Shown here: piece by piece, positions 2,913-17,524 of the stretch
How positions within the stretch are numbered: the stretch's first letter is position 1
Layout: every line of letters starts with the position of its first letter
From: TPA_inf: Saccharomyces
Taxonomy: Eukaryota
Direction: 5' to 3'
DNA length: 64,000 nt
NCBI GenBank assembly: GCA_000146045.2
Contig: BK006946.2
Span: 192,001 to 256,000 of the forward strand
Notes under the pieces: model-generated
The model's input: only the letters and a program-made list of their open reading frames with translations
The model's database searches: none
Told to the model about the DNA's origin: nothing
Made by a program: the position numbers and the translations under genes

Positions 2913-3755
2913 CTATCTATTTCTGCACCTAGTTTCATTATGCAATTTAAAACAACTTACAGAACAAATCTTATTTCCACAATTAACGCAACTTGAAATA
3001 CTATCGTAGCCACCGCAAATAGAGCATGTCGTAATTAGGGGTAACACTTTGAAGTATCGTTTATTGTAAACATTGTGGTAAATGACATTCTTATCCATCA
3101 AGTTTAGCAGCGCAGAATCTAAAAACGAATGTAAATTTCTTTTTGAACTTAAAACCTTCTTTAACGCCACAATACGATTGGTATTCTTCCTCTTTGGTTT
3201 AGGTAGTTTTGTAGATTTATACGATAATTGTATTTCCCGTAAGGTTTCTGGTTTAAGCACCCAACCATGACCATACTTGGAATGCTCTTTTACAAAAGAA
3301 GAACCACCCATTAATGCAGAGAGACCATCCGAGGTCTGTGAGATCGGTTTGGTTGTTGATTCAATTCTATCTCGTGGTACGCCTGTGAGATCACTTAATA
3401 AAGTCGGTACATTTGGTAAATCCGAGAAATTTTCTGTGTTAAGTTCCATAAACCTCCTGTCCGACTGGAGAATCTCTTGTTGTGTGTACCTTTCTTCAAA
3501 TGAATGGGAATTCTTACTATTTCGGTCATCCTGTCTGCTTATACTATTGCCATCTCCCTCAGATCTCGAAGTATATAACCTGGCCTCTAAATCTGCCAGT
3601 GAGTAGTTTATGCGCTTTACGGGCCTAGAGGTGGATATTGTGCCTTGCTTATTAATCTTCTTTGAAGTATATCGACGTGCTTGAGGATCCAATGACGTGA
3701 AATATATGTCAGGATTGTAAGTTTTCTTATCAATCTCTTCAACTAGCGCCTTCAT
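2913..3755 (-). CDS. VPS71: SWR1-complex zinc-finger HIT protein, 280 aa
   Basis: ATG confirmed at 3755..3753. The C-terminal CSICG...CVNCG...C...H pattern is a zf-HIT domain. It is convergent with CAT2, with only 112 bp between the stop codons. Confidence 0.85.
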   Translation of the reverse strand: MKALVEEIDKKTYNPDIYFTSLDPQARRYTSKKINKQGTISTSRPVKRINYSLADLEARLYTSRSEGDGNSISRQDDRNSKNSHSFEERYTQQEILQSDRRFMELNTENFSDLPNVPTLLSDLTGVPRDRIESTTKPISQTSDGLSALMGGSSFVKEHSKYGHGWVLKPETLREIQLSYKSTKLPKPKRKNTNRIVALKKVLSSKRNLHSFLDSALLNLMDKNVIYHNVYNKRYFKVLPLITTCSICGGYDSISSCVNCGNKICSVSCFKLHNETRCRNR

Positions 3756-4050
3756 TTCGCTGTTATGAGTAAGCGATCCGTTCTTTTTCTTCGATCTATC
3801 AATGATATCGACGTTACTATAGATTGAAAGGGCCGCTTCGACTTTTGTTAATACTCACAAAGATCATCATGTTCATTATAAAAAAAGTAGTTATTAATTA
3901 TCTATTACCCGGATCAAAGTTATTTCTACAGAACACAAATATTTTATTGATTGCTTCGTTACATAAAGCAACGACTAAATAAATATAAGCTCTCTAGCTA
4001 TTCCACCGACTTCACTTCCTTAATGAATGGTCGTTTTTGTAATACTCCAA

Positions 4051-4067
4051 AAAAAATATCAAAAAAA
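4051..4067 (-). terminator. RNA polymerase III terminator (T-run) for tRNA-Pro
   Basis: The plus strand reads aaaaaaaatatcaaaaaaa immediately 3' of the tRNA on the minus strand, which is T7 and T8 runs on the transcribed strand. Confidence 0.8.
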
Positions 4068-4170
4068 GGGGCGAGCTGGGAATTGAACCCAGGGCCTCTC
4101 GCATGCTTTGTCTTCCTGTTTAATCAGGAAGTCGCCCAAAGCGAGAATCATACCACTAGACCACACGCCC
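4068..4170 (-). tRNA. tP(UGG): tRNA-Pro (anticodon UGG) with 31-nt intron
   Basis: The reverse complement reads GGGCGTGTGGTCTAGTGGTATGATTCTCGCTTTGGG[cgacttcctgattaaacaggaagacaaagca]TGCGAGAGGCCCTGGGTTCAATTCCCAGCTCGCCCC. It has the A/B-box features (GGTCTAGTGG, GGTTCAATTCC). The anticodon loop is UUUGGGU and the intron follows position 37; on the plus strand the intron is 4104..4134. Confidence 0.95.
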
Positions 4171-4331
4171 TTGTGAACTTGTGAATCTTAGCCACTAAGG
4201 AATCACCGAATAGTAAAAGTTTTCTGACAACTACAATATTAAGCCCTTAACAACAATAATGAATATTGAGTGCATAATGTTGAAATGGAACTCTAAAATA
4301 TCATTTGTTTAGTAGTATTCGTGTTACTAGT

Positions 4332-4668
4332 TGTTGGAATAGAAATCAACTATCATCTACTAACTAGTATTTACATTACTAGTATATTATCATATACGGT
4401 GTTAGAAGATGACGCAAATGATGAGAAATAGTCATCTAAATTAGTGGAAGCTGAAACGCAAGGATTGATAATGTAATAGGATCAATGAATATAAACATAT
4501 AAAACGGAATGAGGAATAATCGTAATATTAGTATGTAGAAATATAGATTCCATTTTGAGGATTCCTATATCCTCGAGGAGAACTTCTAGTATATTCTGTA
4601 TACCTAATATTATAGCCTTTATCAACAATGGAATCCCAACAATTATCTCAACATTCACATATTTCTCA
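4332..4668 (+). repeat. Ty1 5' LTR (delta), ~337 bp
   Basis: It starts TGTTGG and ends ...TCTCA immediately before the primer-binding site. It contains the TYA start codon at 4628. Confidence 0.85.
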
Positions 4669-5950
4669 TGGTAGCGCCTGTGCTTCGGTTACTTCTAAGG
4701 AAGTCCACACAAATCAAGATCCGTTAGACGTTTCAGCTTCCAAAACAGAAGAATGTGAGAAGGCTTCCACTAAGGCTAACTCTCAACAGACAACAACACC
4801 TGCTTCATCAGCTGTTCCAGAGAACCCCCATCATGCCTCTCCTCAACCTGCTTCAGTACCACCTCCACAGAATGGGCCGTACCCACAGCAGTGCATGATG
4901 ACCCAAAACCAAGCCAATCCATCTGGTTGGTCATTTTACGGACACCCATCTATGATTCCGTATACACCTTATCAAATGTCGCCTATGTACTTTCCACCTG
5001 GGCCACAATCACAGTTTCCGCAGTATCCATCATCAGTTGGAACGCCTCTGAGCACTCCATCACCTGAGTCAGGTAATACATTTACTGATTCATCCTCAGC
5101 GGACTCTGATATGACATCCACTAAAAAATATGTCAGACCACCACCAATGTTAACCTCACCTAATGACTTTCCAAATTGGGTTAAAACATACATCAAATTT
5201 TTACAAAACTCGAATCTCGGTGGTATTATTCCGACAGTAAACGGAAAACCCGTACGTCAGATCACTGATGATGAACTCACCTTCTTGTATAACACTTTTC
5301 AAATATTTGCTCCCTCTCAATTCCTACCTACCTGGGTCAAAGACATCCTATCCGTTGATTATACGGATATCATGAAAATTCTTTCCAAAAGTATTGAAAA
5401 AATGCAATCTGATACCCAAGAGGCAAACGACATTGTGACCCTGGCAAATTTGCAATATAATGGCAGTACACCTGCAGATGCATTTGAAACAAAAGTCACA
5501 AACATTATCGACAGACTGAACAATAATGGCATTCATATCAATAACAAGGTCGCATGCCAATTAATTATGAGAGGTCTATCTGGCGAATATAAATTTTTAC
5601 GCTACACACGTCATCGACATCTAAATATGACAGTCGCTGAACTGTTCTTAGATATCCATGCTATTTATGAAGAACAACAGGGATCGAGAAACAGCAAACC
5701 TAATTACAGGAGAAATCTGAGTGATGAGAAGAATGATTCTCGCAGCTATACGAATACAACCAAACCCAAAGTTATAGCTCGGAATCCTCAAAAAACAAAT
5801 AATTCGAAATCGAAAACAGCCAGGGCTCACAATGTATCCACATCTAATAACTCTCCCAGCACGGACAACGATTCCATCAGTAAATCAACTACTGAACCGA
5901 TTCAATTGAACAATAAGCACGACCTTCACCTTAGGCCAGGAACTTACTGA
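4628..5950 (+). CDS. TYA: Ty1 TYA (Gag, capsid protein), 440 aa
   Basis: ORF track 4628..5950. This is the canonical Ty1 Gag sequence, and its ATG lies inside the 5' LTR. Confidence 0.95.
4669..4678 (+). other. Ty1 minus-strand primer-binding site (complementary to the tRNAi-Met 3' end)
   Basis: TGGTAGCGCC lies directly after the 5' LTR end. Confidence 0.85.
5930..5936 (+). other. Ty1 +1 programmed ribosomal frameshift heptamer CUU-AGG-C
   Basis: CTTAGGC sits in the TYA frame 14 nt before the TYA stop. The downstream frame continues as TYB. Confidence 0.9.
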
Positions 5951-8900
5951 ATCTACGGTAAATCACACTAATCATTCTGATGATGAACTCCCTGGACACC
6001 TCCTTCTCGATTCAGGAGCATCACGAACCCTTATAAGATCTGCTCATCACATACACTCAGCATCATCTAATCCTGACATAAACGTAGTTGATGCTCAAAA
6101 AAGAAATATACCAATTAACGCTATTGGTGACCTACAATTTCACTTCCAGGACAACACCAAAACATCAATAAAGGTATTGCACACTCCTAACATAGCCTAT
6201 GACTTACTCAGTTTGAATGAATTGGCTGCAGTAGATATCACAGCATGCTTTACCAAAAACGTCTTAGAACGATCTGACGGCACTGTACTTGCACCTATCG
6301 TAAAATATGGAGACTTTTACTGGGTATCTAAAAAGTACTTGCTTCCATCAAATATCTCCGTACCCACCATCAATAATGTCCATACAAGTGAAAGTACACG
6401 CAAATATCCTTATCCTTTCATTCATCGAATGCTTGCACATGCCAATGCACAGACAATTCGATACTCACTTAAAAATAACACCATCACGTATTTTAACGAA
6501 TCAGATGTCGACAGGTCTAGTGCTATTGACTATCAATGTCCTGATTGTTTAATCGGCAAAAGCACCAAACACAGACATATCAAAGGTTCACGACTAAAAT
6601 ACCAAAATTCATACGAACCCTTTCAATACCTACATACTGACATATTTGGTCCAGTTCACAACCTACCAAAAAGTGCACCATCCTATTTCATCTCATTTAC
6701 TGATGAGACAACAAAATTCCGTTGGGTTTATCCATTACACGACCGTCGCGAGGACTCTATCCTCGATGTTTTTACTACGATACTAGCTTTTATTAAGAAC
6801 CAGTTTCAGGCCAGTGTCTTGGTTATACAAATGGACCGTGGTTCTGAGTATACTAACAGAACTCTCCATAAATTCCTTGAAAAAAATGGTATAACTCCAT
6901 GCTATACAACCACAGCGGATTCCCGAGCACATGGAGTCGCTGAACGGCTCAACCGTACCTTATTAGATGACTGCCGTACTCAACTGCAATGTAGTGGTTT
7001 ACCGAACCATTTATGGTTCTCTGCAATCGAATTTTCTACTATTGTGAGAAATTCACTAGCTTCACCTAAAAGCAAAAAATCTGCAAGACAACATGCTGGC
7101 TTGGCAGGACTTGATATCAGTACTTTGTTACCTTTCGGTCAACCTGTTATCGTCAATGATCACAACCCTAACTCCAAAATACATCCTCGTGGCATCCCAG
7201 GCTACGCTCTACATCCGTCTCGAAACTCTTATGGATATATCATCTATCTTCCATCCTTAAAGAAGACAGTAGATACAACTAACTATGTTATTCTTCAGGG
7301 CAAGGAATCCAGATTAGATCAATTCAATTACGACGCACTCACTTTCGATGAAGACTTAAACCGTTTAACTGCTTCATATCAATCGTTCATTGCGTCAAAT
7401 GAGATCCAACAATCCGATGATCTTAACATAGAATCTGACCATGACTTCCAATCTGACATCGAACTACATCCTGAGCAACCGAGAAATGTCCTTTCAAAAG
7501 CTGTGAGTCCAACCGATTCCACACCTCCGTCAACTCATACTGAAGATTCGAAACGTGTTTCTAAAACCAATATTCGCGCACCCAGAGAAGTTGACCCCAA
7601 CATATCTGAATCTAATATTCTTCCATCAAAGAAGAGATCTAGCACCCCCCAAATTTCCAATATCGAGAGTACCGGTTCGGGTGGTATGCATAAATTAAAT
7701 GTTCCTTTACTTGCTCCCATGTCCCAATCTAACACACATGAGTCGTCGCACGCCAGTAAATCTAAAGATTTCAGACACTCAGACTCGTACAGTGAAAATG
7801 AGACTAATCATACAAACGTACCAATATCCAGTACGGGTGGTACCAACAACAAAACTGTTCCGCAGATAAGTGACCAAGAGACTGAGAAAAGGATTATACA
7901 CCGTTCACCTTCAATCGATGCTTCTCCACCGGAAAATAATTCATCGCACAATATTGTTCCTATCAAAACGCCAACTACTGTTTCTGAACAGAATACCGAG
8001 GAATCTATCATCGCTGATCTCCCACTCCCTGATCTACCTCCAGAATCTCCTACCGAATTCCCTGACCCATTTAAAGAACTCCCACCGATAAATTCTCATC
8101 AAACTAATTCCAGTTTGGGTGGTATTGGTGACTCTAATGCCTATACTACTATCAACAGTAAGAAAAGATCATTAGAAGATAATGAAACTGAAATTAAGGT
8201 ATCACGAGACACATGGAATACTAAGAATATGCGTAGTTTAGAACCTCCGAGATCGAAGAAACGAATTCACCTGATTGCAGCTGTAAAAGCAGTAAAATCA
8301 ATCAAACCAATACGGACAACCTTACGATACGATGAGGCAATCACCTATAATAAAGATATTAAAGAAAAAGAAAAATATATCGAGGCATACCACAAAGAAG
8401 TCAATCAACTGTTGAAGATGAAAACTTGGGACACTGACGAATATTATGACAGAAAAGAAATAGACCCTAAAAGAGTAATAAACTCAATGTTTATCTTCAA
8501 CAAGAAACGTGACGGTACTCATAAAGCTAGATTTGTTGCAAGAGGTGATATTCAGCATCCTGACACTTACGACTCAGGCATGCAATCCAATACCGTACAT
8601 CACTATGCATTAATGACATCCCTGTCACTTGCATTAGACAATAACTACTATATTACACAATTAGACATATCTTCGGCATATTTGTATGCAGACATCAAAG
8701 AAGAATTATACATAAGACCTCCACCACATTTAGGAATGAATGATAAGTTGATACGTTTGAAGAAATCACTTTATGGATTGAAACAAAGTGGAGCGAACTG
8801 GTACGAAACTATCAAATCATACCTGATAAAACAGTGTGGTATGGAAGAAGTTCGTGGATGGTCATGCGTATTTAAGAATAGTCAAGTAACAATATGTTTA

Positions 8901-9896
8901 TTTGTTGACGACATGATTTTATTCAGCAAAGACTTAAATGCAAATAAGAAAATCATAACAACACTCAAGAAACAATACGATACAAAGATAATAAATCTGG
9001 GTGAAAGTGATAACGAAATTCAGTACGACATACTTGGCTTAGAAATCAAATATCAAAGAGGTAAATACATGAAATTAGGTATGGAAAACTCATTAACTGA
9101 GAAAATACCCAAATTAAACGTACCTTTGAATCCAAAAGGAAGAAAACTTAGCGCTCCAGGTCAACCAGGTCTTTATATAGACCAGGATGAACTAGAAATA
9201 GATGAAGATGAATACAAAGAGAAGGTACATGAAATGCAAAAGTTGATTGGTCTAGCTTCATATGTTGGATATAAATTTAGATTTGACTTACTATACTACA
9301 TCAACACACTTGCTCAACATATACTATTCCCCTCTAGGCAAGTTTTAGACATGACATATGAGTTGATACAATTCATGTGGGACACTAGAGATAAACAACT
9401 GATATGGCACAAAAACAAACCTACCGAGCCAGATAATAAACTAGTCGCAATAAGTGATGCTTCGTATGGCAACCAACCGTATTATAAATCACAAATTGGC
9501 AACATATATTTACTTAATGGAAAGGTAATTGGAGGAAAGTCCACCAAGGCTTCATTAACATGTACTTCAACTACGGAAGCAGAAATACACGCGATAAGTG
9601 AATCTGTCCCATTATTAAATAATCTAAGTTACCTGATACAAGAACTTAACAAGAAACCAATTATTAAAGGCTTACTTACTGATAGTAGATCAACGATCAG
9701 TATAATTAAGTCTACAAATGAAGAGAAATTTAGAAACAGATTTTTTGGCACAAAGGCAATGAGACTTAGAGATGAAGTATCAGGTAATAATTTATACGTA
9801 TACTACATCGAGACCAAGAAGAACATTGCTGATGTGATGACAAAACCTCTTCCGATAAAAACATTTAAACTATTAACTAACAAATGGATTCATTAG
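5934..9896 (+). CDS. TYB: Ty1 TYB (protease-integrase-reverse transcriptase/RNase H), expressed as a Gag-Pol fusion by +1 frameshift
   Basis: The +1 frame is open from the frameshift site to 9896. The ORF track starts at 6177 only because that is the first start-like codon. Protease [11 protein letters not shown] lies near 6000, the integrase zinc and D,D35E region at 6400-6950, and RT YVDDM at about 8900. The frame offset relative to TYA is +1. Confidence 0.92.
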
Positions 9897-9910: not shown

Positions 9911-9918
9911 GGGTGGTA
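9911..9918 (+). other. Ty1 polypurine tract (plus-strand primer)
   Basis: GGGTGGTA lies immediately upstream of the 3' LTR TGTTGG. Confidence 0.8.
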
Positions 9919-10250
9919 TGTTGGAATAGAAATCAACTATCATCTACTAACTAGTATTTACATTACTAGTATATTATCATATACGGTGTTAGAAGATGAC
10001 GCAAATGATGAGAAATAGTCATCTAAATTAGTGGAAGCTGAAACGCAAGGATTGATAATGTAATAGGATCAATGAATATAAACATATAAAACGGAATGAG
10101 GAATAATCGTAATATTAGTATGTAGAAATATAGATTCCATTTTGAGGATTCCTATATCCTCGAGGAGAACTTCTAGTATATTCTGTATACCTAATATTAT
10201 AGCCTTTATCAACAATGGAATATCAGCAATCATCAGATGAATGTTAAAAT
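9919..10250 (+). repeat. Ty1 3' LTR (delta); terminal ~35 bp diverged from the 5' LTR
   Basis: It is identical to the 5' LTR from TGTTGG through ...CAACAATGGAAT, i.e. 9919..~10221. It then diverges (ATCAGCAATCATCAGATGAATG versus CCCAACAATTATCTCAACATTC). The end is estimated from the LTR length. Confidence 0.7.
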
Positions 10251-10774
10251 TGTGTAAGGATGCTCATTCTGTTTCGTTAACTTTCCAGTTTTCTCGAGGA
10301 CTTCTGGTTCATTATACGTGAAATTATTTACCTAACCAAAATTATCAAACAATTCTTCCTTACTTCAGCTAAAGATTCGGCGAGACAGAGGTTGAACACA
10401 ATGCAAGCGCATCGATATTTTTACGGCCGCAGTTGAATGGATCCAAAAGCATTGGCCAATTTAAATGAAAGAAATAAGTAAATTTCTAAAGATTTATCTA
10501 AGTGCCTCTTCTTTCCTGTATTCAATAATTTAGTGTCTAAAACGCAAAGGTATAAATTTGATAATGTTCTTTTATTAACTGTCAATAAAGTATATATGAA
10601 AAAGTGTGAAGAACCTTCGTATAAAATCTATCTAGTAAAATATTTTTAATTATGTGCGGATGTATTGTCTATTCCCATGTGCTTTGCTTATGTCCTGTTA
10701 GAGGACTTTTAAGTATGCTGTATACATGTTTTAAATTTTTGCCTTTATTCTTTCTCTCTCTTACTATATCGCTC

Positions 10775-12103
10775 TCAGACCTGCTGGGATGAACGACTAA
10801 CGTTTTGAGCAATCATATCAAGCTCATACTCTTGATTTGTTAGGTCGACACTAATAGAATATGGTGCGATTTTCTTGCTTCCTAACTGTTCGAAGTCTTG
10901 AAATCCCTTTAACTCGTTACGATTATCTTGTGTCGAAACTGAATGATATTTTTGTAATAGATCTTGCTTATATCTGAAGTAATTATAATAGCATACATCT
11001 GCCATAATAATAAGCATTCCTAACCAATTGTAAAAACCACTTAATCTTTCAGAAAGAATAATTATACCAAATATTACCGTCAAAAGTTCCTTCACTATAC
11101 CCACAATAGATACGGTCAGCACGGGCGTTTGCTCCAAAATACTAAACTCACAAATTGTCAACAAAAAGACTGCAAAACCAGGTAAAATTAACAAAACAAT
11201 ACCCCTCACAATGGATAGGACGGTAGTTTCCGTGCCGACACCGCCATTGCTCGTATCAAGCCTAAATATGCTAGAGCTGAATATACCAGGAAATGGTTTT
11301 TCCACAAGTAGCGAGGTAAGCAACAGAGTAATGCCCATTATAGGAGCTAACTGGTGGATTGTATGAATTGGGTGAGGCTTGGATTCTCCAAAATTCTCCA
11401 GCATTTTGTTATTGGCGAGGTTAACAACAGGTTCATTATCGACATTATCTTCATTTTCCGTGAAAAGGGCACCATCAGATTCCTCTACTGCTGCAGCGGT
11501 GTTAGTTTGAATTGGGTTGTTCCTAAGCATCAACTGCGTATAAACCCACCTTAACCCAGAAAGACAGCTACTTGCTAGGACAAGAAAGCTGCCAAAAATG
11601 ACCAAGGCTTGGTCGTTTTTGGTACTGGTGGAATCGCTTGGTTTGAAAACCATTAATGCTACACCAACAAACATAATTATTACTGAAAGTGCCAACTTCC
11701 AATGAAACTTTTCTAGCTTGAAGATACAGCCGAATAAAAGGACAAAAGCTATGCTCGAAGATTTGATAATTGTATAAATTGTCAAGGGAACATACTGGAA
11801 GGAAACGTTACTGAGCCCGATATCACCTGCAGAAGCGACTGCCGTAGGGAGTAAAAATTTTAGAAAAAAACTCCAGTTAAAACCATTATTCTTTCTTAAA
11901 ACGTTTTTCACTGGCTTATGCCTGAGCTTAATGTATATGCCGGATAGTAACCATAAAGTAGCCTGATGGAATGTTGTCACCAACACGGGATACCCAATAC
12001 CCAATCCGTCCTTCGGATCGAACATCCATCTATTGTATATGGAGAGAGCTATTGAACAGAAATACCATCCAAATACAAATGCCAAAAAGACAGTCCTATT
12101 CAT
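10775..12103 (-). CDS. YMD8: Putative nucleotide-sugar / triose-phosphate-transporter-family membrane protein, 442 aa
   Basis: The ORF-track ORF starts at TTG (12157); the in-frame ATG is at 12103 (MNRTVFLAF...). It is a multi-pass hydrophobic protein. The length and position match YML038C. Confidence 0.8.
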   Translation of the reverse strand: MNRTVFLAFVFGWYFCSIALSIYNRWMFDPKDGLGIGYPVLVTTFHQATLWLLSGIYIKLRHKPVKNVLRKNNGFNWSFFLKFLLPTAVASAGDIGLSNVSFQYVPLTIYTIIKSSSIAFVLLFGCIFKLEKFHWKLALSVIIMFVGVALMVFKPSDSTSTKNDQALVIFGSFLVLASSCLSGLRWVYTQLMLRNNPIQTNTAAAVEESDGALFTENEDNVDNEPVVNLANNKMLENFGESKPHPIHTIHQLAPIMGITLLLTSLLVEKPFPGIFSSSIFRLDTSNGGVGTETTVLSIVRGIVLLILPGFAVFLLTICEFSILEQTPVLTVSIVGIVKELLTVIFGIIILSERLSGFYNWLGMLIIMADVCYYNYFRYKQDLLQKYHSVSTQDNRNELKGFQDFEQLGSKKIAPYSISVDLTNQEYELDMIAQNVSRSSQQV

Positions 12104-12385
12104 AGCAAAATGTGACACGAGAATTGAAGGTATAAACACTCGCTGTAACAACTTCAAGTGATCGTGGAAGTGATGAAAATGCAGTTATGAGTATAATCAG
12201 GCCAATTGACACTTTAAAAAAACAGAACAACAGCTTCTCGTGATGCCACTATCCCTTATATTTCCAGTTCTAAGCCATCTCCTTCTCATTCTCGACAAAA
12301 AAAATGGGTGTGATTATTTTGCGCTTTATTTTTTGGCGTCTCGTCGCCGATGACTCTAATAGATGTTGAAGCCTACAAGCATCTA

Positions 12386-13408
12386 TTATATTTTCTTCTT
12401 TGGTTGTAATGGGATGAATGAATCTAGAGTTAATGAAGGAGTGCTGGCAATGCTGGGCTCGCTGGATGGATGATAACTAGATTGTGCAGGTACCTGTTCA
12501 AATCCATCACCATCATCATGTTCACTGCATCCAGTGTTAGTAACTGCGGGCTCGTGTACTTTGGGTTCAGCTTGTTGATCACTCATACTCTCTTGCTTTG
12601 ATTGGATGGTATTTTTATCACTGAAAGTTGTATCATCGTCAGGTGATAGGCCAGATTTTTGGCTTACCTCATCCTGAATTTCATTTTTGGCCTCTATAGG
12701 CTTTTCGGATTTCTTTTTTGAACCTGATTTAGAACCAGAATGGCCCCAAAATCCAAAAAAACTCTTCCTTTTCGACTTATTTTTCTTTGTCTTATCACCG
12801 TCTGATTTCTTCTTTTCTTTGGGCAATTCCTTAACAACGAATTTCTGTAGCGGGTCCACTTTGAAATCGGAATTAGCCCACGTAGAAGGTTTCTTGCCAT
12901 CAGCTGTATGTGCCTCATTTCTCTCAAATCTTTCTTCCACCATCCAACTTTTGCTATTGGGCTTTATACACTTATCAATCTCAGCAGAAGCTCTATCAAA
13001 TAACTGACTGGTAGTAGTAATTTTGGGCTTGTTGCTTCCTCTGCTCGGAGAGCCCTGCTTGAAGGTTGTATTTATAGTTTCTTGATGAGAAGTAGGTGCT
13101 ACATTATGACTCCAGGAAAATAGAACTGGCCCATCCAGCTGTAAAGCGCCAGAATTCATAGTTATGGTTTTTTCCTCATCAATCCAATCTCTTTGTATTT
13201 GCCGACATTTCCCATCAAGTTTGTCGGTACTCAATTTATTCCCCATTTGCATAGGTGAATGAAACAAACAGTTCATCAACCGCCTACCGTTCGCTACTTC
13301 ATCTAATAACCCATATAACGACACATCTCCATTTTTGGCTTGCTCGGAGTCATCTTGCGGTGTGTATTCCTTACTGAACAACTGGTCGATTATTTTGTTT
13401 TCGTCCAT
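12386..13408 (-). CDS. YML037C: Uncharacterized protein YML037C, 340 aa (K/S-rich, acidic C-terminal half)
   Basis: The ORF track starts at TTG (13450); the first in-frame ATG is at 13408 (MDENKIIDQ...). The length matches the systematic ORF expected between YMD8 and CGI121. Confidence 0.7.
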   Translation of the reverse strand: MDENKIIDQLFSKEYTPQDDSEQAKNGDVSLYGLLDEVANGRRLMNCLFHSPMQMGNKLSTDKLDGKCRQIQRDWIDEEKTITMNSGALQLDGPVLFSWSHNVAPTSHQETINTTFKQGSPSRGSNKPKITTTSQLFDRASAEIDKCIKPNSKSWMVEERFERNEAHTADGKKPSTWANSDFKVDPLQKFVVKELPKEKKKSDGDKTKKNKSKRKSFFGFWGHSGSKSGSKKKSEKPIEAKNEIQDEVSQKSGLSPDDDTTFSDKNTIQSKQESMSDQQAEPKVHEPAVTNTGCSEHDDGDGFEQVPAQSSYHPSSEPSIASTPSLTLDSFIPLQPKKKI

Positions 13409-13641
13409 AATTTGTCCTTCCCAAAAAATAACCAGCTTAGATTCTGACAATGCTTGTTTCTTTAATTGATGATCTGTAATATTCGTTGATCATTAATACC
13501 ATTGATTTCAATATTTCATGTTTAATCTTTTGCGCGAAAATTTCAATTGCAAACCAAAATATACATCAACAATCTTTTATCGGTCAACAAATTTGTCGAT
13601 ATAACCAAATATACGTCGTCGCTGCCCATTATACAATCATC

Positions 13642-14293
13642 ATGGTAGTATCCATCATACCGCAATTTCCTGATATCAAGGTTTCACTAGCATTGTTTGA
13701 ACAGGTTAAAAATGCTAAAGAAATACGCTCTAAAATGAGTGAATTGTCGACATCCTTTGCCTTTATTGACCCCCGGTTAGTCTGTTCGGGGGAGCAGATG
13801 TATTCTGCAATTTACAAGACCTTAATAGAAGTGAAATATAACAAGATGAGAACAAGAAATTTGAATTCCGAGTGCGTACTATGTCTTTCACCCACTTCCA
13901 ATATTAGTGATGCTTTCCTCAAATTCGGAATCAAAGACGATTCGTCACAGTTAATATGCCTTAAGTTCCATACTAATACTGACGATGTAGACAAAGAGCA
14001 ATTGAGGACGATTATGACTTCTATAGTAAAAGGACAAGAGATCGAGTTTAATGATGACAATTTATCGAGATTTTATGACGAAGCGCTCATAAGAAAAGTA
14101 TGTTTTAATAATAAATTCGAGGTAAAAACTTCAACAGCCTCACCAGAAACACATTGTACTAACTTCACCTTTGTTTTCCTTTTATTTTGTTTTTACCTAT
14201 TAGATCTATAAATTAAGTGATGATTTCAAGCCCCAAGACGTAAATGGTCTCTCAAGAGCTTTGGTAGACGCTATTCAATTGAGGGGTGTGTAG
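13642..14293 (+). CDS. CGI121: KEOPS/EKC complex subunit, 181 aa; spliced: join(13642..14097,14204..14293)
   Basis: ATG at 13642. The 5' splice site GTATGT is at 14098, the branch point TACTAAC at 14157..14163, and the 3' splice site TAG at 14201..14203. Exon 2 encodes IYKLSDDFKPQDVNGLSRALVDAIQLRGV*. The ORF-track ORF 13486..14211 is an unspliced read-through artefact. Confidence 0.88.
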
Positions 14294-14427
14294 ATAAGAG
14301 ATATCTAACGATAAAATTATAAAAAAAATTCTTTGATTATTTTTCAGATTAGTATTATTTGTTCTCCGTGAAGTCAGTGTATCGAACTGCCAAAAGTTCT
14401 CCTTATATACATGTGCGCGTATAACCA

Positions 14428-16860
14428 TCACTTTTCTTCAATGGTTCTCTTGAAATTGGCAAAATGATTAACTAATTCCAGTTCAGTTGATAATGTATCG
14501 TATCTGTAGTTAATTCTAATATCAGGAACATTTGTTCTAACCACATCGTTACCTTCAACACCACTCTTGTCAAAATCTTTCCCTATCCAATGTTTTTTGA
14601 TTTGTGCTTCCCACCCACTTTGCAACACGGAATTTCTTGCCAATTCACACATATCTACATTAGACAATTTATAAATTTGTGCTGCAACTGAGTATTCTTC
14701 GATTAATGGTTCTCTGGTATATGAGAATTGTAAAGGATCATCTGTGGATAGTGAGACATTCAAACCTCTTTTAAAGTATCTCGGAAATGGGTTTTTATCA
14801 TAGGTCAAAAATAATGCGTTATTAGAAAGGGGTGACATTGCGATACCAACCTGATCTAAATAGTATAAGTATTGAACAAATGGAACTTTCCTCAATAAAA
14901 TACCATGTGATATACCATGTGCCAATAGATATGCTGAAACGAGATGCTCGGGGTCACCGGCTTCACCACAATGTGGTCTCAAAACCAAAGTGTTAAACCC
15001 TCTCTTAGCCCTCCATTGATTCAAAGACGCGACATTTGAATACAAATAGTACAGGTAATAGGAATAAGGAGGGTTTTGAGGAGCCTCCCAGAGTGATGGC
15101 TTGGGATATTTCCTATGAAAGCGGCGATCAACCTTGGATTCATCATCGACAGAATCAAACCCAATTACTCTCTGTAAAAATACATGCAATTTTGGATGAG
15201 ACTGAGGATTTTTGGTCACTTCAAATAGTGGCTGAAACAGATTCTTACAGATGTCCTGGAAGCTTTGAACAATGCCAGTTTTCTTGTAAATATCATATAA
15301 CCTCGGAATTTGGACTAACCAACGAACATTATGGGAAATAACTTTGTTGTCAATCACCCAGCTAGCTAGTTTATCCCATTCATCGAGAGACCTGCCATAA
15401 ACAGAAATTCTATACTCACAGTTTTGGTATTTTGAATTCTCTAAATCGAATATGACTTGTTTGGTAATGTCAGCCAAGTAGGTACCCTTGATGTAGTTGT
15501 TTGTCTTCAAAAAAATTTCTCTGAGACGAGATTCACCGATAGGGTTATATTTTAAGTTGAATTTATCGAATCTGTGGAATGTATCCTTATGTGCATGCAT
15601 ATCTAAAGTATCGATGGATAAATCATATCCAGTCAAATGCAAAGAACGGAATACTTCGTCTAAAGTTAGTAGTTTCCCGTCCCTGAAAATAACCTTTTCA
15701 TCTTTGGAATGTCTCAATTTGTGTTTAATGAAACGTAATAAGTGCTTTTGGTTCATACAAGCAGAATGGTGAACGTGAGTGTCCACTTTCCTAACATTAT
15801 AAAAATCCCTGTGTGGGTTTCTTTTGGAAACGCTAGTTTCTTGATATTCGTTCAAGAGATAGTAAAGATTCCAGCGTGCTTCTAGGTATTGCAGCCTTCT
15901 ATAAGCAAATGATTTAGCGGGACCGTCTGATGAGATGGAAATCATTTTTTCTAGATCCAGATAGTAGTCACGAAGGGTAGGGATTTGAGCAATTAACTCA
16001 TCCGTCTTACCTGATCTGTGTACCACGTACGAGTCGTCATCGTTGAGGGTAAATTCCCAATCTGGATCCTCACCAGGAATTTCACATTTCGTAAAATCGA
16101 AAACTTCCGCATCCGGCTTGTTTGTTACTGGCACAACAGTCTTAGTGTCTGAGTTGTATGAAGGTTTAGGTGGTGGTGGATAGACTACCCAGCCTGGCTT
16201 ATTTTTTGGGTTTTGATCATCGTTTTGCACAGATATGGTCTGATATTTGGCTCTCAAATTTCTACACTCTGCCACTTTGGAATACAAGTCAATCAACTCG
16301 GAAGAGGGATCATCAAGAAACTGCTGTGAAGCATCATCAGCCAACATTCCCATTTTATAGGAGGCAGAGGTACGTACCTGCTTATTCACTACCGGAGCGC
16401 CGGCAAATGACTTGAGCGTCTCTGGCAAGATATGCTGAGCACTAGCAGACAAGGTCCTCGGTTTACCCCCGGAATTTTGAGATGCATGGTCTGCCGAGTC
16501 ATGGCCCTTATTCATCGCTGCTATGTTGGAAGAGCTACAATTGGTAGAATGCGATGGTTGCTCCAAGATGGCAGAGTGAGAATCATGCTCATCTAGGGCC
16601 AACTGTTTGGTGCCATTTTCCAACAACTGCTGATTCTCGTGATACGAGAAATTAGCATTCCGAGAATCAGCAGCTAAACTTTCGTGTGAATCTTGCTGCT
16701 CTAAGGGGGGTGTCTCATCATCCACTACGACACCAGCTTGTTCATCACCAATCTTTCTTTGATCTATGTCAATGACTAGTCCTGAACCATCTTGTTCATC
16801 GTGTGAAGGAGCTGGTTCTAGAGAAAGGTCGTTAAGCCTCTGTGTAGCCTGATTGTCCAT
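14428..16860 (-). CDS. AMD1: AMP deaminase, 810 aa
   Basis: ATG at 16860. It carries the conserved AMP-deaminase core (SLSTDDPLQF, HxHxxA metal-site motifs), and the length is exact. Confidence 0.93.
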   Translation of the reverse strand: MDNQATQRLNDLSLEPAPSHDEQDGSGLVIDIDQRKIGDEQAGVVVDDETPPLEQQDSHESLAADSRNANFSYHENQQLLENGTKQLALDEHDSHSAILEQPSHSTNCSSSNIAAMNKGHDSADHASQNSGGKPRTLSASAQHILPETLKSFAGAPVVNKQVRTSASYKMGMLADDASQQFLDDPSSELIDLYSKVAECRNLRAKYQTISVQNDDQNPKNKPGWVVYPPPPKPSYNSDTKTVVPVTNKPDAEVFDFTKCEIPGEDPDWEFTLNDDDSYVVHRSGKTDELIAQIPTLRDYYLDLEKMISISSDGPAKSFAYRRLQYLEARWNLYYLLNEYQETSVSKRNPHRDFYNVRKVDTHVHHSACMNQKHLLRFIKHKLRHSKDEKVIFRDGKLLTLDEVFRSLHLTGYDLSIDTLDMHAHKDTFHRFDKFNLKYNPIGESRLREIFLKTNNYIKGTYLADITKQVIFDLENSKYQNCEYRISVYGRSLDEWDKLASWVIDNKVISHNVRWLVQIPRLYDIYKKTGIVQSFQDICKNLFQPLFEVTKNPQSHPKLHVFLQRVIGFDSVDDESKVDRRFHRKYPKPSLWEAPQNPPYSYYLYYLYSNVASLNQWRAKRGFNTLVLRPHCGEAGDPEHLVSAYLLAHGISHGILLRKVPFVQYLYYLDQVGIAMSPLSNNALFLTYDKNPFPRYFKRGLNVSLSTDDPLQFSYTREPLIEEYSVAAQIYKLSNVDMCELARNSVLQSGWEAQIKKHWIGKDFDKSGVEGNDVVRTNVPDIRINYRYDTLSTELELVNHFANFKRTIEEK

Positions 16861-17524
16861 AATTTTTTTTAGAATGCCCCCTTTTTATTTGTTATATAAT
16901 TTATTAATCTGGCGTACTAGCAGTTCAATCGAGTTTTGCTGAATCAAAATTGGCTATAGCAGGGAGACTATAATAAAAATACTATTAATATCCGATAATT
17001 GACTAGTATACGAGAAACGCTGCTAATTCTGCCTGTAGAGAGAGAGAAGAAAAGTCGTCAAGAGATGCCTTTTTTTTTTTTTTAAAATTTATCTATTTTT
17101 TGATAATATCCTTTAAACCTTGTGCTACTAGAACTCCTTTCTCATCATCGCCAGGCGCAAAAAAAAGATGAAAAAGGAATGAAAAAAGAAAAGAGAAGAC
17201 CCCCACGTGCCCTAAAAATAAAGTTAGGGCATCTATAAAATAACTAGGATATATATATTGATCACCCTGAACGGAAATCAAGGGTTTTAAAGAGCCCTCA
17301 AAATTACTGTTTTAGGAAGCCCCCTTTGTTTTTGTTTTGGTTTCAATTTGTGGTGGCTAATCTGGACATCGATCTACTTGTATAGCTGTCAATATACTAT
17401 GCGGAATACATGGAAGAGAAATAGTCCTCAGTCATTATTAATAGTAGACTGAGACCATACGGAGTGAACGTAGAGGCCAGAACAACAAACAGTAGAACGG
17501 TAGCAGTACTCAGTTAGTGCCGCG

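What the first reader, a model, noticed from the sequence alone, without database searches (positions are those of the whole stretch)
9919..10300. The two Ty1 LTRs are not identical: the 3' LTR terminus diverges over ~35 bp, and no 5-bp target-site duplication is detectable
The LTRs match base-for-base from TGTTGG for about 300 bp, through ...TATCAACAATGGAAT. The 5' LTR then continues CCCAACAATTATCTCAACATTCACATATTTCTCA up to the primer-binding site. The 3' LTR instead continues ATCAGCAATCATCAGATGAATGTTAAAATTG, which is related but has many substitutions. Reverse transcription creates identical LTRs, so this points to post-insertion gene conversion or recombination with a different, older delta. 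The 5-bp 5' flank, CTAGT at 4327..4331, is not repeated after the 3' LTR. That is consistent with an inter-element recombination product rather than a simple insertion.
Basis: seen in the sequence. Interest (0 to 1): 0.55.

Follow-up and report, generated by a model that had tools for sequence, protein, structure and literature searches.

The report
Ty1 3' LTR clipped by old delta
The right-hand repeat of this yeast Ty1 retrotransposon is not mutated: its last 34 bases, the target-site duplication and about 110 bases of neighbouring DNA were lost by recombination with an older LTR scrap lying just downstream, which is an ordinary, well-understood kind of event.

Summary
The window is S. cerevisiae chromosome XIII (CAT2, VPS71, tP(UGG)M, Ty1, YMD8). 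The element is YMLWTy1-2.

**What the sequence shows**
- The 5' LTR is complete: 4332-4668, 337 bp.
- The 3' LTR (9919-10221) is identical to it for 303 of 303 bases and then stops.
- The left flank CTAGT is not repeated on the right.

**What Ty-free alleles from other strains show**
- After CTAGT they carry an inverted old delta fragment, then a direct old delta fragment matching LTR positions ~256-320.
- The window's sequence from 10222 onward is that direct fragment and its flank, joined in register.
- The switch lies inside a 14-bp identical block, ATCAACAATGGAAT.
- A simple insertion with a CTAGT duplication into the closest empty allele (L022), followed by one 149-bp deletion, reproduces window 9919-11614 with no mismatch.

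**Reading**
- The "divergent tail" is 13 bp of an older delta plus unique flank. It is not a mutated LTR end.
- A simple insertion would have created a ~64-bp near-palindrome with the inverted fragment, which probably provoked the deletion. That step is inferred.

This is a known kind of event in a long-annotated reference element, so interest is low.

The parts
4068..4170 (-). tRNA-Pro(UGG) gene with intron (tP(UGG)M). Its 5' end is 161 bp from the Ty1 5' LTR and it is transcribed divergently from the Ty1.
   Evidence: Rfam RF00005, 48.7 bits. Sequence read. ARAGORN missed it. The locus is named tP(UGG)M / YMLWTy1-2 in bioRxiv 10.1101/2023.04.17.534528.
4278..4331 (+). Old, degenerate delta fragment A, equivalent to LTR positions 1-52. 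In Ty-free alleles it continues to about position 60. The Ty1 sits inside it.
   Evidence: Local alignment. nhmmer on the empty alleles gives E=0.002-0.003 for LTR 2-60. The evidence is weak but runs end to end, in register.
4327..4331 (.). CTAGT, the 5 bp next to the 5' LTR. This is the presumed target site; its right-hand copy is missing.
   Evidence: In empty alleles CTAGT is followed directly by ATAGTAyC.
4332..4668 (+). Complete 5' LTR (337 bp, TG...CA). It is a mosaic: a Ty2-like 5' half and a Ty1-like 3' half.
4669..4678 (+). Primer-binding site TGGTAGCGCC.
   Evidence: That this matches the Ty1 PBS for initiator tRNA-Met is from established knowledge.
4628..5950 (+). TYA (Gag) ORF, 440 aa. 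Its ATG is at LTR position 297.
   Evidence: Pfam PF01021 TYA, E=1e-233.
5910..9896 (+). TYB (Pol) reading frame, open throughout. The +1 frameshift heptamer CTTAGGC is at 5930-5936.
   Evidence: Pfam rve, RVT_2, Pol_BBD.
9911..9918 (+). Polypurine tract GGGTGGTA, abutting the 3' LTR.
   Evidence: Identification as the PPT is from established knowledge.
9919..10221 (+). Truncated 3' LTR: LTR positions 1-303, 100% identical to 4332-4634. The last 34 bp (most of U5 and the terminal CA) are absent.
10208..10221 (+). Crossover block ATCAACAATGGAAT. These 14 bp are identical in the Ty1 LTR (positions 290-303) and in old delta fragment C. The switch of parentage lies within it.
   Evidence: To its left the window has the LTR-type CTTTATC (empty alleles have CTCAATC). 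To its right it has the A of old fragment C (empty haplotype H3), where the LTR has C.
10222..10234 (+). Surviving end of old direct delta fragment C (ATCAGCAATCATC), equivalent to LTR 304-316 with 9/13 identical.
   Evidence: Carr et al. 2012 annotated the element as 5903 bp, i.e. running to this point.
10235..10774 (.). Unique intergenic flank up to the YMD8 stop codon, collinear with Ty-free alleles. It is identical to allele L022 through 11614.

Best explanation
YMLWTy1-2 is a young, intact Ty1 lying 161 bp upstream of tP(UGG)M, inside a patch of old delta scraps. Its left end is a normal integrase-made end: LTR position 1 follows CTAGT. Its right end is a recombination joint, not an integrase end. 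The 3' LTR (positions 1-303) is fused in register to a pre-existing, roughly 63-bp, ~84%-identical direct delta remnant (fragment C) that lay about 65-125 bp downstream of the insertion point. The switch falls in their longest shared block, 14 bp (ATCAACAATGGAAT).

Compared with a simple insertion, 149 bp are missing: 34 bp of the LTR end, the 5-bp right copy of the target duplication, and 110 bp of target DNA. The lost target DNA includes an inverted delta remnant (fragment B).

The most likely path is inferred, not shown. Normal integration with a CTAGT duplication placed the 3' LTR end tail-to-tail with fragment B. That created a ~64-bp near-perfect inverted repeat with a 13-nt spacer. Such a structure is unstable in yeast, through hairpin formation, breakage or replication slippage. 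It was resolved by annealing or slippage between the flanking direct repeats (the 3' LTR and fragment C), which deleted everything between them.

The lost part of the 3' LTR is almost all U5. U5 is not part of the Ty1 transcript and is copied from the 5' end during reverse transcription. The element should therefore still be able to produce normal progeny. This last point is inferred from the standard LTR-retroelement replication scheme.
For: Shown:
- Locus identity comes from the neighbouring ORFs, the tRNA and the literature.
- The LTRs are identical for 303/303 bases and then break.
- Ty-free alleles have a 1237-1242-bp VPS71-YMD8 spacer. The window's left flank matches positions 1-579 of it and the right flank matches 691-1242, so 111 bp (110 bp in the H3-type alleles) are absent from the window.
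- That stretch reads ATAGTAyC, then the inverted delta 3' end (nhmmer E=1e-17 to 1e-19), then the direct delta fragment LTR 256-320 (E=2e-11).
- Reconstruction from L007, then one 149-bp deletion, gives 1 mismatch in 553 bp, and the shared block is 14 bp.
- Reconstruction from L022 gives 0 mismatches over window 9919-11614.
- The A at 10222 is a segregating variant of fragment C, present in L002, L004, L007, L020 and L022. No new mutation is needed.
- The element is rare: none of the 20 chromosome XIII loci fetched carries a Ty1 at this site, and Carr et al. found it in 3 of 23 strains.
- The element is intact: TYA, the TYB frame, the frameshift heptamer, the PBS and the PPT are all present.

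Inferred:
- The reconstructed intermediate folds into a long hairpin, -66.4 kcal/mol, z=-16.3 against shuffles.
- Long inverted repeats induce breaks and instability in yeast (PMC3681665).
Against: - No allele with the same Ty1 and an intact 3' LTR plus CTAGT duplication was found. The two-step order is therefore not demonstrated. A metagenome scan for that junction gave only two chance hits.
- The palindrome exists only in my reconstruction.
- I could not confirm the junction in an assembly independent of this window.
- The R/U5 boundary and the dispensability of 3' U5 rest on recalled Ty1 literature and were not tested here.
Confidence: 0.85

Rival explanations
1. One-step aberrant integration. 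Integrase joined only the U3 (left) end of the Ty1 cDNA at CTAGT. The free right end was resected and captured by host repair through annealing of its LTR to fragment C. The 34 bp of cDNA end and 110 bp of target were lost at the moment of insertion, so no duplication or palindrome ever existed.
For: - The final product would be identical.
- The left junction is a precise LTR end, and the right junction is a homology joint in a 14-bp block.
- No intact intermediate allele was found.
Against: - It needs a rare half-site integration as well as a repair event.
- The two-step path uses ordinary integration plus a deletion that the local inverted repeat would strongly favour.
- Nothing in the sequence separates the two paths.
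Confidence: 0.2
2. The 3' LTR terminus diverged in place by point substitutions, so a full-length LTR has a decayed last ~35 bp.
For: 17/34 ungapped identity between the tails, and 9/13 over the first 13 bases.
Against: - The tail and everything after it are base-for-base identical to DNA present in Ty-free alleles.
- The first 303 bp of the LTR carry no substitutions at all.
- Tail similarity is within the range of shuffles.
Confidence: 0.01
3. Ectopic recombination between two dispersed full Ty1 elements or solo LTRs, exchanging flanks. That would be a translocation, inversion or large deletion, which is the usual explanation for Ty elements without matching duplications.
For: Absence of a target-site duplication.
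Against: - Both flanks are collinear with the same 1.24-kb intergenic spacer in about 17 Ty-free alleles, and only 110-111 bp are missing.
- Gene order CAT2-VPS71-YMD8-YML037C-CGI121-AMD1 is unchanged.
Confidence: 0.02
4. Conversion of an older, already truncated solo delta. An earlier delta at CTAGT had lost its 3' end against fragment C. A Ty1 cDNA or another Ty1 later converted it into a full element.
For: - The site is a hot spot. L002 has a solo Ty2-type delta 3 bp away, also without a duplication. L004 and L010 have other Ty1s within ~70 bp.
Against: - No sampled allele has a solo delta starting exactly after CTAGT.
- It requires more events.
- The joint itself would still be the same LTR-by-fragment-C deletion.
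Confidence: 0.07
5. Assembly artefact at the right end of the element.
For: I obtained no independent assembly of this allele.
Against: - The joint is a clean in-register fusion. It carries haplotype-consistent variants on both sides and an exact match to L022 for 1.39 kb.
- A 14-bp repeat is too short to collapse a finished assembly.
- Carr et al. list the same extent, 5903 bp, though from the same reference sequence.
Confidence: 0.02

Closest known systems
Canonical full-length Ty1 insertion upstream of a tRNA gene (e.g. other S288C Ty1 elements)
   Same: - TG-start LTR, PBS, PPT, TYA, TYB with the CTTAGGC frameshift, and Pfam TYA/rve/RVT_2 domains.
- LTR copies are identical where both exist.
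- The element lies 161 bp upstream of a Pol III gene.
   Different: The 3' LTR lacks its last 34 bp and the terminal CA, there is no 5-bp duplication, and 110 bp of target DNA are missing.
Truncation of LTR retrotransposons by deletion between short direct repeats. This covers 'illegitimate recombination' in plant LTR elements (Devos, Brown & Bennetzen 2002; recalled) and the 'truncated' Ty class of Carr et al. 2012 (PMC3511429).
   Same: The deletion is bounded by short direct homology with one copy kept. It removes part of an LTR plus adjacent DNA. [quoted passage not shown]
   Different: The repeats here are themselves homeologous LTR sequence: the 3' LTR against an old delta scrap. The event is therefore halfway to LTR-LTR recombination. 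Carr et al. still class this element as full-length.
Inverted-repeat (quasi-palindrome) stimulated deletion in yeast. Sources: Gordenin et al. 1993 and Lobachev et al. 1998 (recalled); Saini et al. 2013, PMC3681665.
   Same: The reconstructed precursor has a ~64-bp near-perfect inverted repeat with a 13-nt spacer, flanked by direct repeats. The product lacks the loop, the right arm and part of the left arm, and keeps one direct repeat.
   Different: The precursor is inferred, not observed. No genetic dependence (MRX/Sae2, Pol delta, Rad52/Rad1) can be tested from sequence.
Ty elements lacking matching target-site duplications because of inter-element recombination, as surveyed by Kim et al. 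1998 (Genome Res 8:464). This is recalled; the paper could not be read here.
   Same: No duplication, and an origin by recombination.
   Different: The flanks here belong to one and the same site. There was no exchange with a distant element.

Membership tests
Ty1 (Pseudoviridae / copia-type) full-length LTR retrotransposon | Gag (TYA) and Pol (protease, integrase, RT-RNase H) ORFs linked by the +1 frameshift site CTTAGGC | tested here: met
   Pfam TYA E=1e-233; rve, RVT_2 and Pol_BBD in the TYB frame. CTTAGGC at 5930 and the TYB frame open 5910-9896.
Ty1 (Pseudoviridae / copia-type) full-length LTR retrotransposon | PBS next to the 5' LTR and PPT next to the 3' LTR | tested here: met
   TGGTAGCGCC at 4669-4678 and GGGTGGTA at 9911-9918. 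The motif identities are from established knowledge.
Ty1 (Pseudoviridae / copia-type) full-length LTR retrotransposon | Two complete direct LTRs, each TG...CA | tested here: not met
   The 5' LTR is complete (337 bp). The 3' LTR stops at position 303 and lacks the CA end.
Ty1 (Pseudoviridae / copia-type) full-length LTR retrotransposon | 5-bp target-site duplication flanking the element | tested here: not met
   CTAGT on the left only. The right copy falls inside the 149-bp deletion inferred.
Ty1 (Pseudoviridae / copia-type) full-length LTR retrotransposon | Insertion within the window upstream of a Pol III-transcribed gene | tested here: met
   tRNA-Pro(UGG) at 4068-4170 (-), with its 5' end 161 bp from the LTR.
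   Fragment C (LTR 256-320, E=2e-11) is present in every allele recovered by the anchor search, across four empty-site haplotypes. L013 was not tabulated because its anchor sequence differs.
   LTR-type CTTTATC lies to the left, and the A of old fragment C (empty haplotype H3) lies to the right, of the 14-bp block ATCAACAATGGAAT.
Ectopic exchange between two dispersed Ty or delta elements | Left and right flanks derive from different genomic sites | tested here: not met
   Both flanks map to the same 1.24-kb spacer, 110-111 bp apart, in the Ty-free alleles.
Inverted-repeat-stimulated deletion | A long, closely spaced inverted repeat present in the precursor and removed in the product | tested here: inconclusive
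   Fragment B is present in empty alleles and absent from the window. The hairpin with the 3' LTR (-66.4 kcal/mol, z=-16.3) exists only in a reconstructed precursor.
Inverted-repeat-stimulated deletion | Dependence on hairpin processing or replication factors | not testable with these tools
   This needs yeast genetics.

The most novel reading that the evidence does not exclude
The joint could be the natural footprint of a one-ended Ty1 integration. In that reading, integrase joined the U3 end, and the U5 end was captured by homology-directed repair using a nearby old delta scrap. More generally, Ty1 insertions landing tail-to-tail beside inverted delta remnants at tRNA hot spots may create palindromes that are removed at once. 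That would systematically erase duplications and LTR ends in such nests. L002 shows a second delta at this site without a duplication.
Probability: 0.2. Interest if true: 0.4.

Novelty: already known. Interest (0 to 1): 0.15.

Why it matters
The practical value is mainly for annotation.

- The 3' LTR of YMLWTy1-2 ends at window 10221, not at 10234 or about 10255.
- The element has no target-site duplication for a clear local reason.
- LTR-divergence dating or duplication-based validation would misjudge it if the tail were read as "substitutions".
- It is also a tidy natural example of how tRNA-proximal Ty nests are remodelled by short homeologous repeats and inverted repeats.
- It changes no concept: LTR/delta recombination, repeat-mediated deletion and palindrome instability are all established in yeast.

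Tried and rejected
- ARAGORN found no tRNA in the window. That briefly suggested an atypical Ty1 site. Rfam then found the intron-containing tRNA-Pro.
- I first labelled the element YMLWTy1-1 and considered the tandem YMLWTy1-1A/B reported by Chan & Kolodner. Carr et al.'s table and the 6.2-kb spacing show that the window element is YMLWTy1-2 and that the tandem is the neighbour outside the window. I dropped this lead.
- Lenient local alignments of the flanks to the LTR were no better than shuffles. I replaced them with empty-allele comparison and nhmmer.
- I searched for an intact intermediate or an independent copy of the junction:
  - a metagenome scan for ATTTCTCACTAGTATAGTA gave two unrelated hits;
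  - the TYA look-up led to a chromosome X element;
  - the TYB ORF and the junction-spanning 54-aa ORF are not on record.
- Kim et al. 1998 could not be read.
- My first deletion-scan script gave trivial matches (top part). It was corrected.

Full report
**Locus**

The ORFs around the finding translate to CAT2 (704-2800), VPS71 (2913-3755, minus strand), a Ty1 TYA/TYB pair, YMD8 (10775-12103, minus strand), YML037C, CGI121 and AMD1 (gene names from my own knowledge). Pfam annotations of the same genes in other assemblies agree. This is S. cerevisiae chromosome XIII.

Carr et al. 2012 (PMC3511429, File S2) list the element at 196 kb as YMLWTy1-2. They class it as full-length and active, and found it in 3 of 23 scorable strains. 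A 2023 preprint describes tP(UGG)M as divergently flanked by YMLWTy1-2.

ARAGORN found no tRNA. Rfam found an intron-containing tRNA at 4068-4170 on the minus strand. Its sequence shows it to be tRNA-Pro(UGG). The Ty1 therefore lies 161 bp upstream of a Pol III gene, which is the classic Ty1 target zone.

**The observation**

- The 5' LTR is 4332-4668 (337 bp), followed by the PBS TGGTAGCGCC.
- The 3' copy starts at 9919, right after the polypurine tract, and is identical for exactly 303 bases, to 10221.
- After that, the 5' LTR reads CCCAACAATTATCTCAACATTCACATATTTCTCA. The 3' side reads ATCAGCAATCATCAGATGAATG...
- The tails share 17/34 bases ungapped. The best local alignment of the 5' tail to the 120 bases after 10221 is matched or beaten by 164 of 1000 shuffles.
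- CTAGT (4327-4331) is not repeated to the right.

The description of the tail as "related but with many substitutions" does not.

**Empty-site alleles**

Using the exact VPS71 and YMD8 proteins I fetched 20 chromosome XIII loci from other assemblies.

- Seventeen of them have a 1237-1242-bp VPS71-YMD8 spacer without a Ty. One assembly was fetched twice, as L007 and L020.
- L004 and L010 carry Ty1 elements at other points in the spacer.
- L002 carries a solo delta.
- The window's left flank (3756-4331) matches positions 1-579 of the empty spacer. The right flank (10223-10774) matches positions 691-1242. So 111 bp are missing from the window.

In the empty alleles the sequence after ...GTTACTAGT has three parts:

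- ATAGTAyC;
- an inverted delta 3'-end fragment B, the reverse complement of LTR 337 down to about 261-277 (nhmmer E=1e-17 to 1e-19);
- a 26-nt spacer and then a direct delta fragment C, equivalent to LTR ~256-320 (E=2e-11).

The DNA just left of the site (window 4278-4331) is a weak match to LTR 1-52, and to 1-60 in empty alleles (E about 0.003). The Ty1 thus landed in a nest of old delta scraps.

**The joint**

The window's 3' LTR runs into fragment C in register.

- Left of the 14-bp block ATCAACAATGGAAT (10208-10221) the window has the Ty1-LTR variant CTTTATC. Fragment C has CTCAATC there.
- Right of the block the window has fragment C's ATCAGCAATCATC and then the unique flank.
- The A at 10222 is a segregating variant of fragment C, present in L002, L004, L007, L020 and L022.
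- I built a hypothetical simple insertion (complete 3' LTR + CTAGT) into allele L007 and removed 149 bp. That reproduces the window with 1 mismatch in 553 bp.
- With allele L022 the match is perfect from 9919 to 11614.
- The 149 bp are 34 bp of LTR end, the 5-bp duplicate and 110 bp of target DNA, including fragment B.
- The empty alleles cannot derive from the window allele, because they contain 110-111 bp that the window lacks. Those bases occur in four distinct haplotypes.

**Mechanism**

Shown: the right end is a homology joint between the 3' LTR and an older, adjacent delta remnant. The left end is a precise LTR terminus.

Inferred: after a normal integration, the 3' LTR end and fragment B would lie tail-to-tail, 13 nt apart. 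They would form a ~64-bp near-perfect inverted repeat. The reconstructed 206-nt stretch folds at -66.4 kcal/mol, z=-16.3. Long inverted repeats cause breaks and instability in yeast (PMC3681665; older work by Gordenin and Lobachev, recalled). Repair or slippage between the flanking direct repeats (LTR ~254-316 and fragment C; longest perfect block 14 bp) gives exactly the observed product.

A one-step alternative cannot be excluded. In it, integrase joins only the left end and the right end is captured by annealing to fragment C. No allele with the intact intermediate was found.

**Consequences for the element**

The ORFs, the frameshift site, the PBS and the PPT are intact. The TYA ATG is at LTR position 297 and the GAGGAGAAC motif near the transcription start is at 244. 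By the recalled Ty1 map (R of about 56 nt), the missing 304-337 is essentially U5 of the 3' LTR. That region is not transcribed into genomic RNA and is regenerated from the 5' end during reverse transcription. The element is therefore probably still competent. This is an inference and was not tested.

**Comparison with what is known, and novelty**

This is a known reference element. The event belongs to known classes: recombination between LTR and delta sequences, deletion between short direct repeats that truncates LTR elements, and palindrome-stimulated deletion.

It is not an exchange between dispersed elements, because both flanks come from one site. Carr et al.'s length of 5903 bp shows that homology-based annotation ran 13 bp into fragment C.

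I could not read Kim et al. 1998 to see whether the missing duplication was noted there. The detailed reconstruction may not be published, but it is a small annotation-level point.

**Verdict**

Interest is low.

Noticed in passing
window 4068-4170 (-): An intron-containing tRNA-Pro(UGG) gene that ARAGORN (bacterial settings) missed and Rfam found. Without it the Ty1 would look like an atypical insertion with no tRNA nearby.
   Followed up: yes
L001 9299-9413 (= empty-spacer positions 588-702, window orientation); same region in L007, L014, L015: In Ty-free alleles, the 26-nt spacer between the inverted delta arms B and C is exactly reverse-complemented between haplotype H1 (ATAATATCAGCTATACAGAATACTAT) and haplotypes H2-H4 (ATAGTATTCTGTATAGCTGATATTAT). 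This is a spacer-inversion polymorphism of the kind attributed to template switching between inverted repeats (PMC8604942). The stretch is deleted in the window.
   Followed up: partly
window 4332-4668 and 9919-10221: The LTR is a mosaic. Positions 1-165 are 98% identical to the Ty2-type solo delta of L002 and only 78-85% to canonical Ty1 deltas. Positions 166-337 are 97-98% identical to Ty1 deltas and 78% to the Ty2 type. The element therefore belongs to the known Ty1/Ty2 hybrid-LTR subfamily.
   Followed up: partly
L002, VPS71-YMD8 spacer positions ~576-915 (window orientation): A Ty2-type solo delta sits 3 bp to the right of the window's Ty1 site. It also has no target-site duplication (GTATA before, GACTT after). 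It lies tail-to-tail with inverted fragment B, separated by only the 4 nt GACT. This is a second rearranged delta junction at the same spot.
   Followed up: no
L004 and L010, VPS71-YMD8 spacers: Independent full-length Ty1 insertions lie about 65 bp closer to the tRNA (near window 4264-4268). L010 also has extra inverted delta pieces and a solo delta inside fragment B, with a normal TGTTG duplication. The site is a multi-hit Ty hot spot.
   Followed up: partly
window ~10537-10748: Another very degenerate delta-like stretch (LTR ~120-291, nhmmer E about 0.003) lies just upstream of the YMD8 stop. The match is weak and may be chance.
   Followed up: no
window 10222-16900 compared with L001, L007 and L022: The window's haplotype is a mosaic. 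Next to the Ty1 it matches H3-type alleles (L022 is identical for 1.39 kb). Over the full 6.7-kb right flank it is closest to H1-type L001 (4 mismatches, against 28 for L007).
   Followed up: no
outside the window (about 6 kb to the left; YMLWTy1-1): Chan & Kolodner 2011 (PMC3102749) report that S288C-derived strains carry two tandem Ty1s at the neighbouring YMLWTy1-1 locus, unlike the reference. This is not relevant to the element studied here but is easily confused with it.
   Followed up: yes
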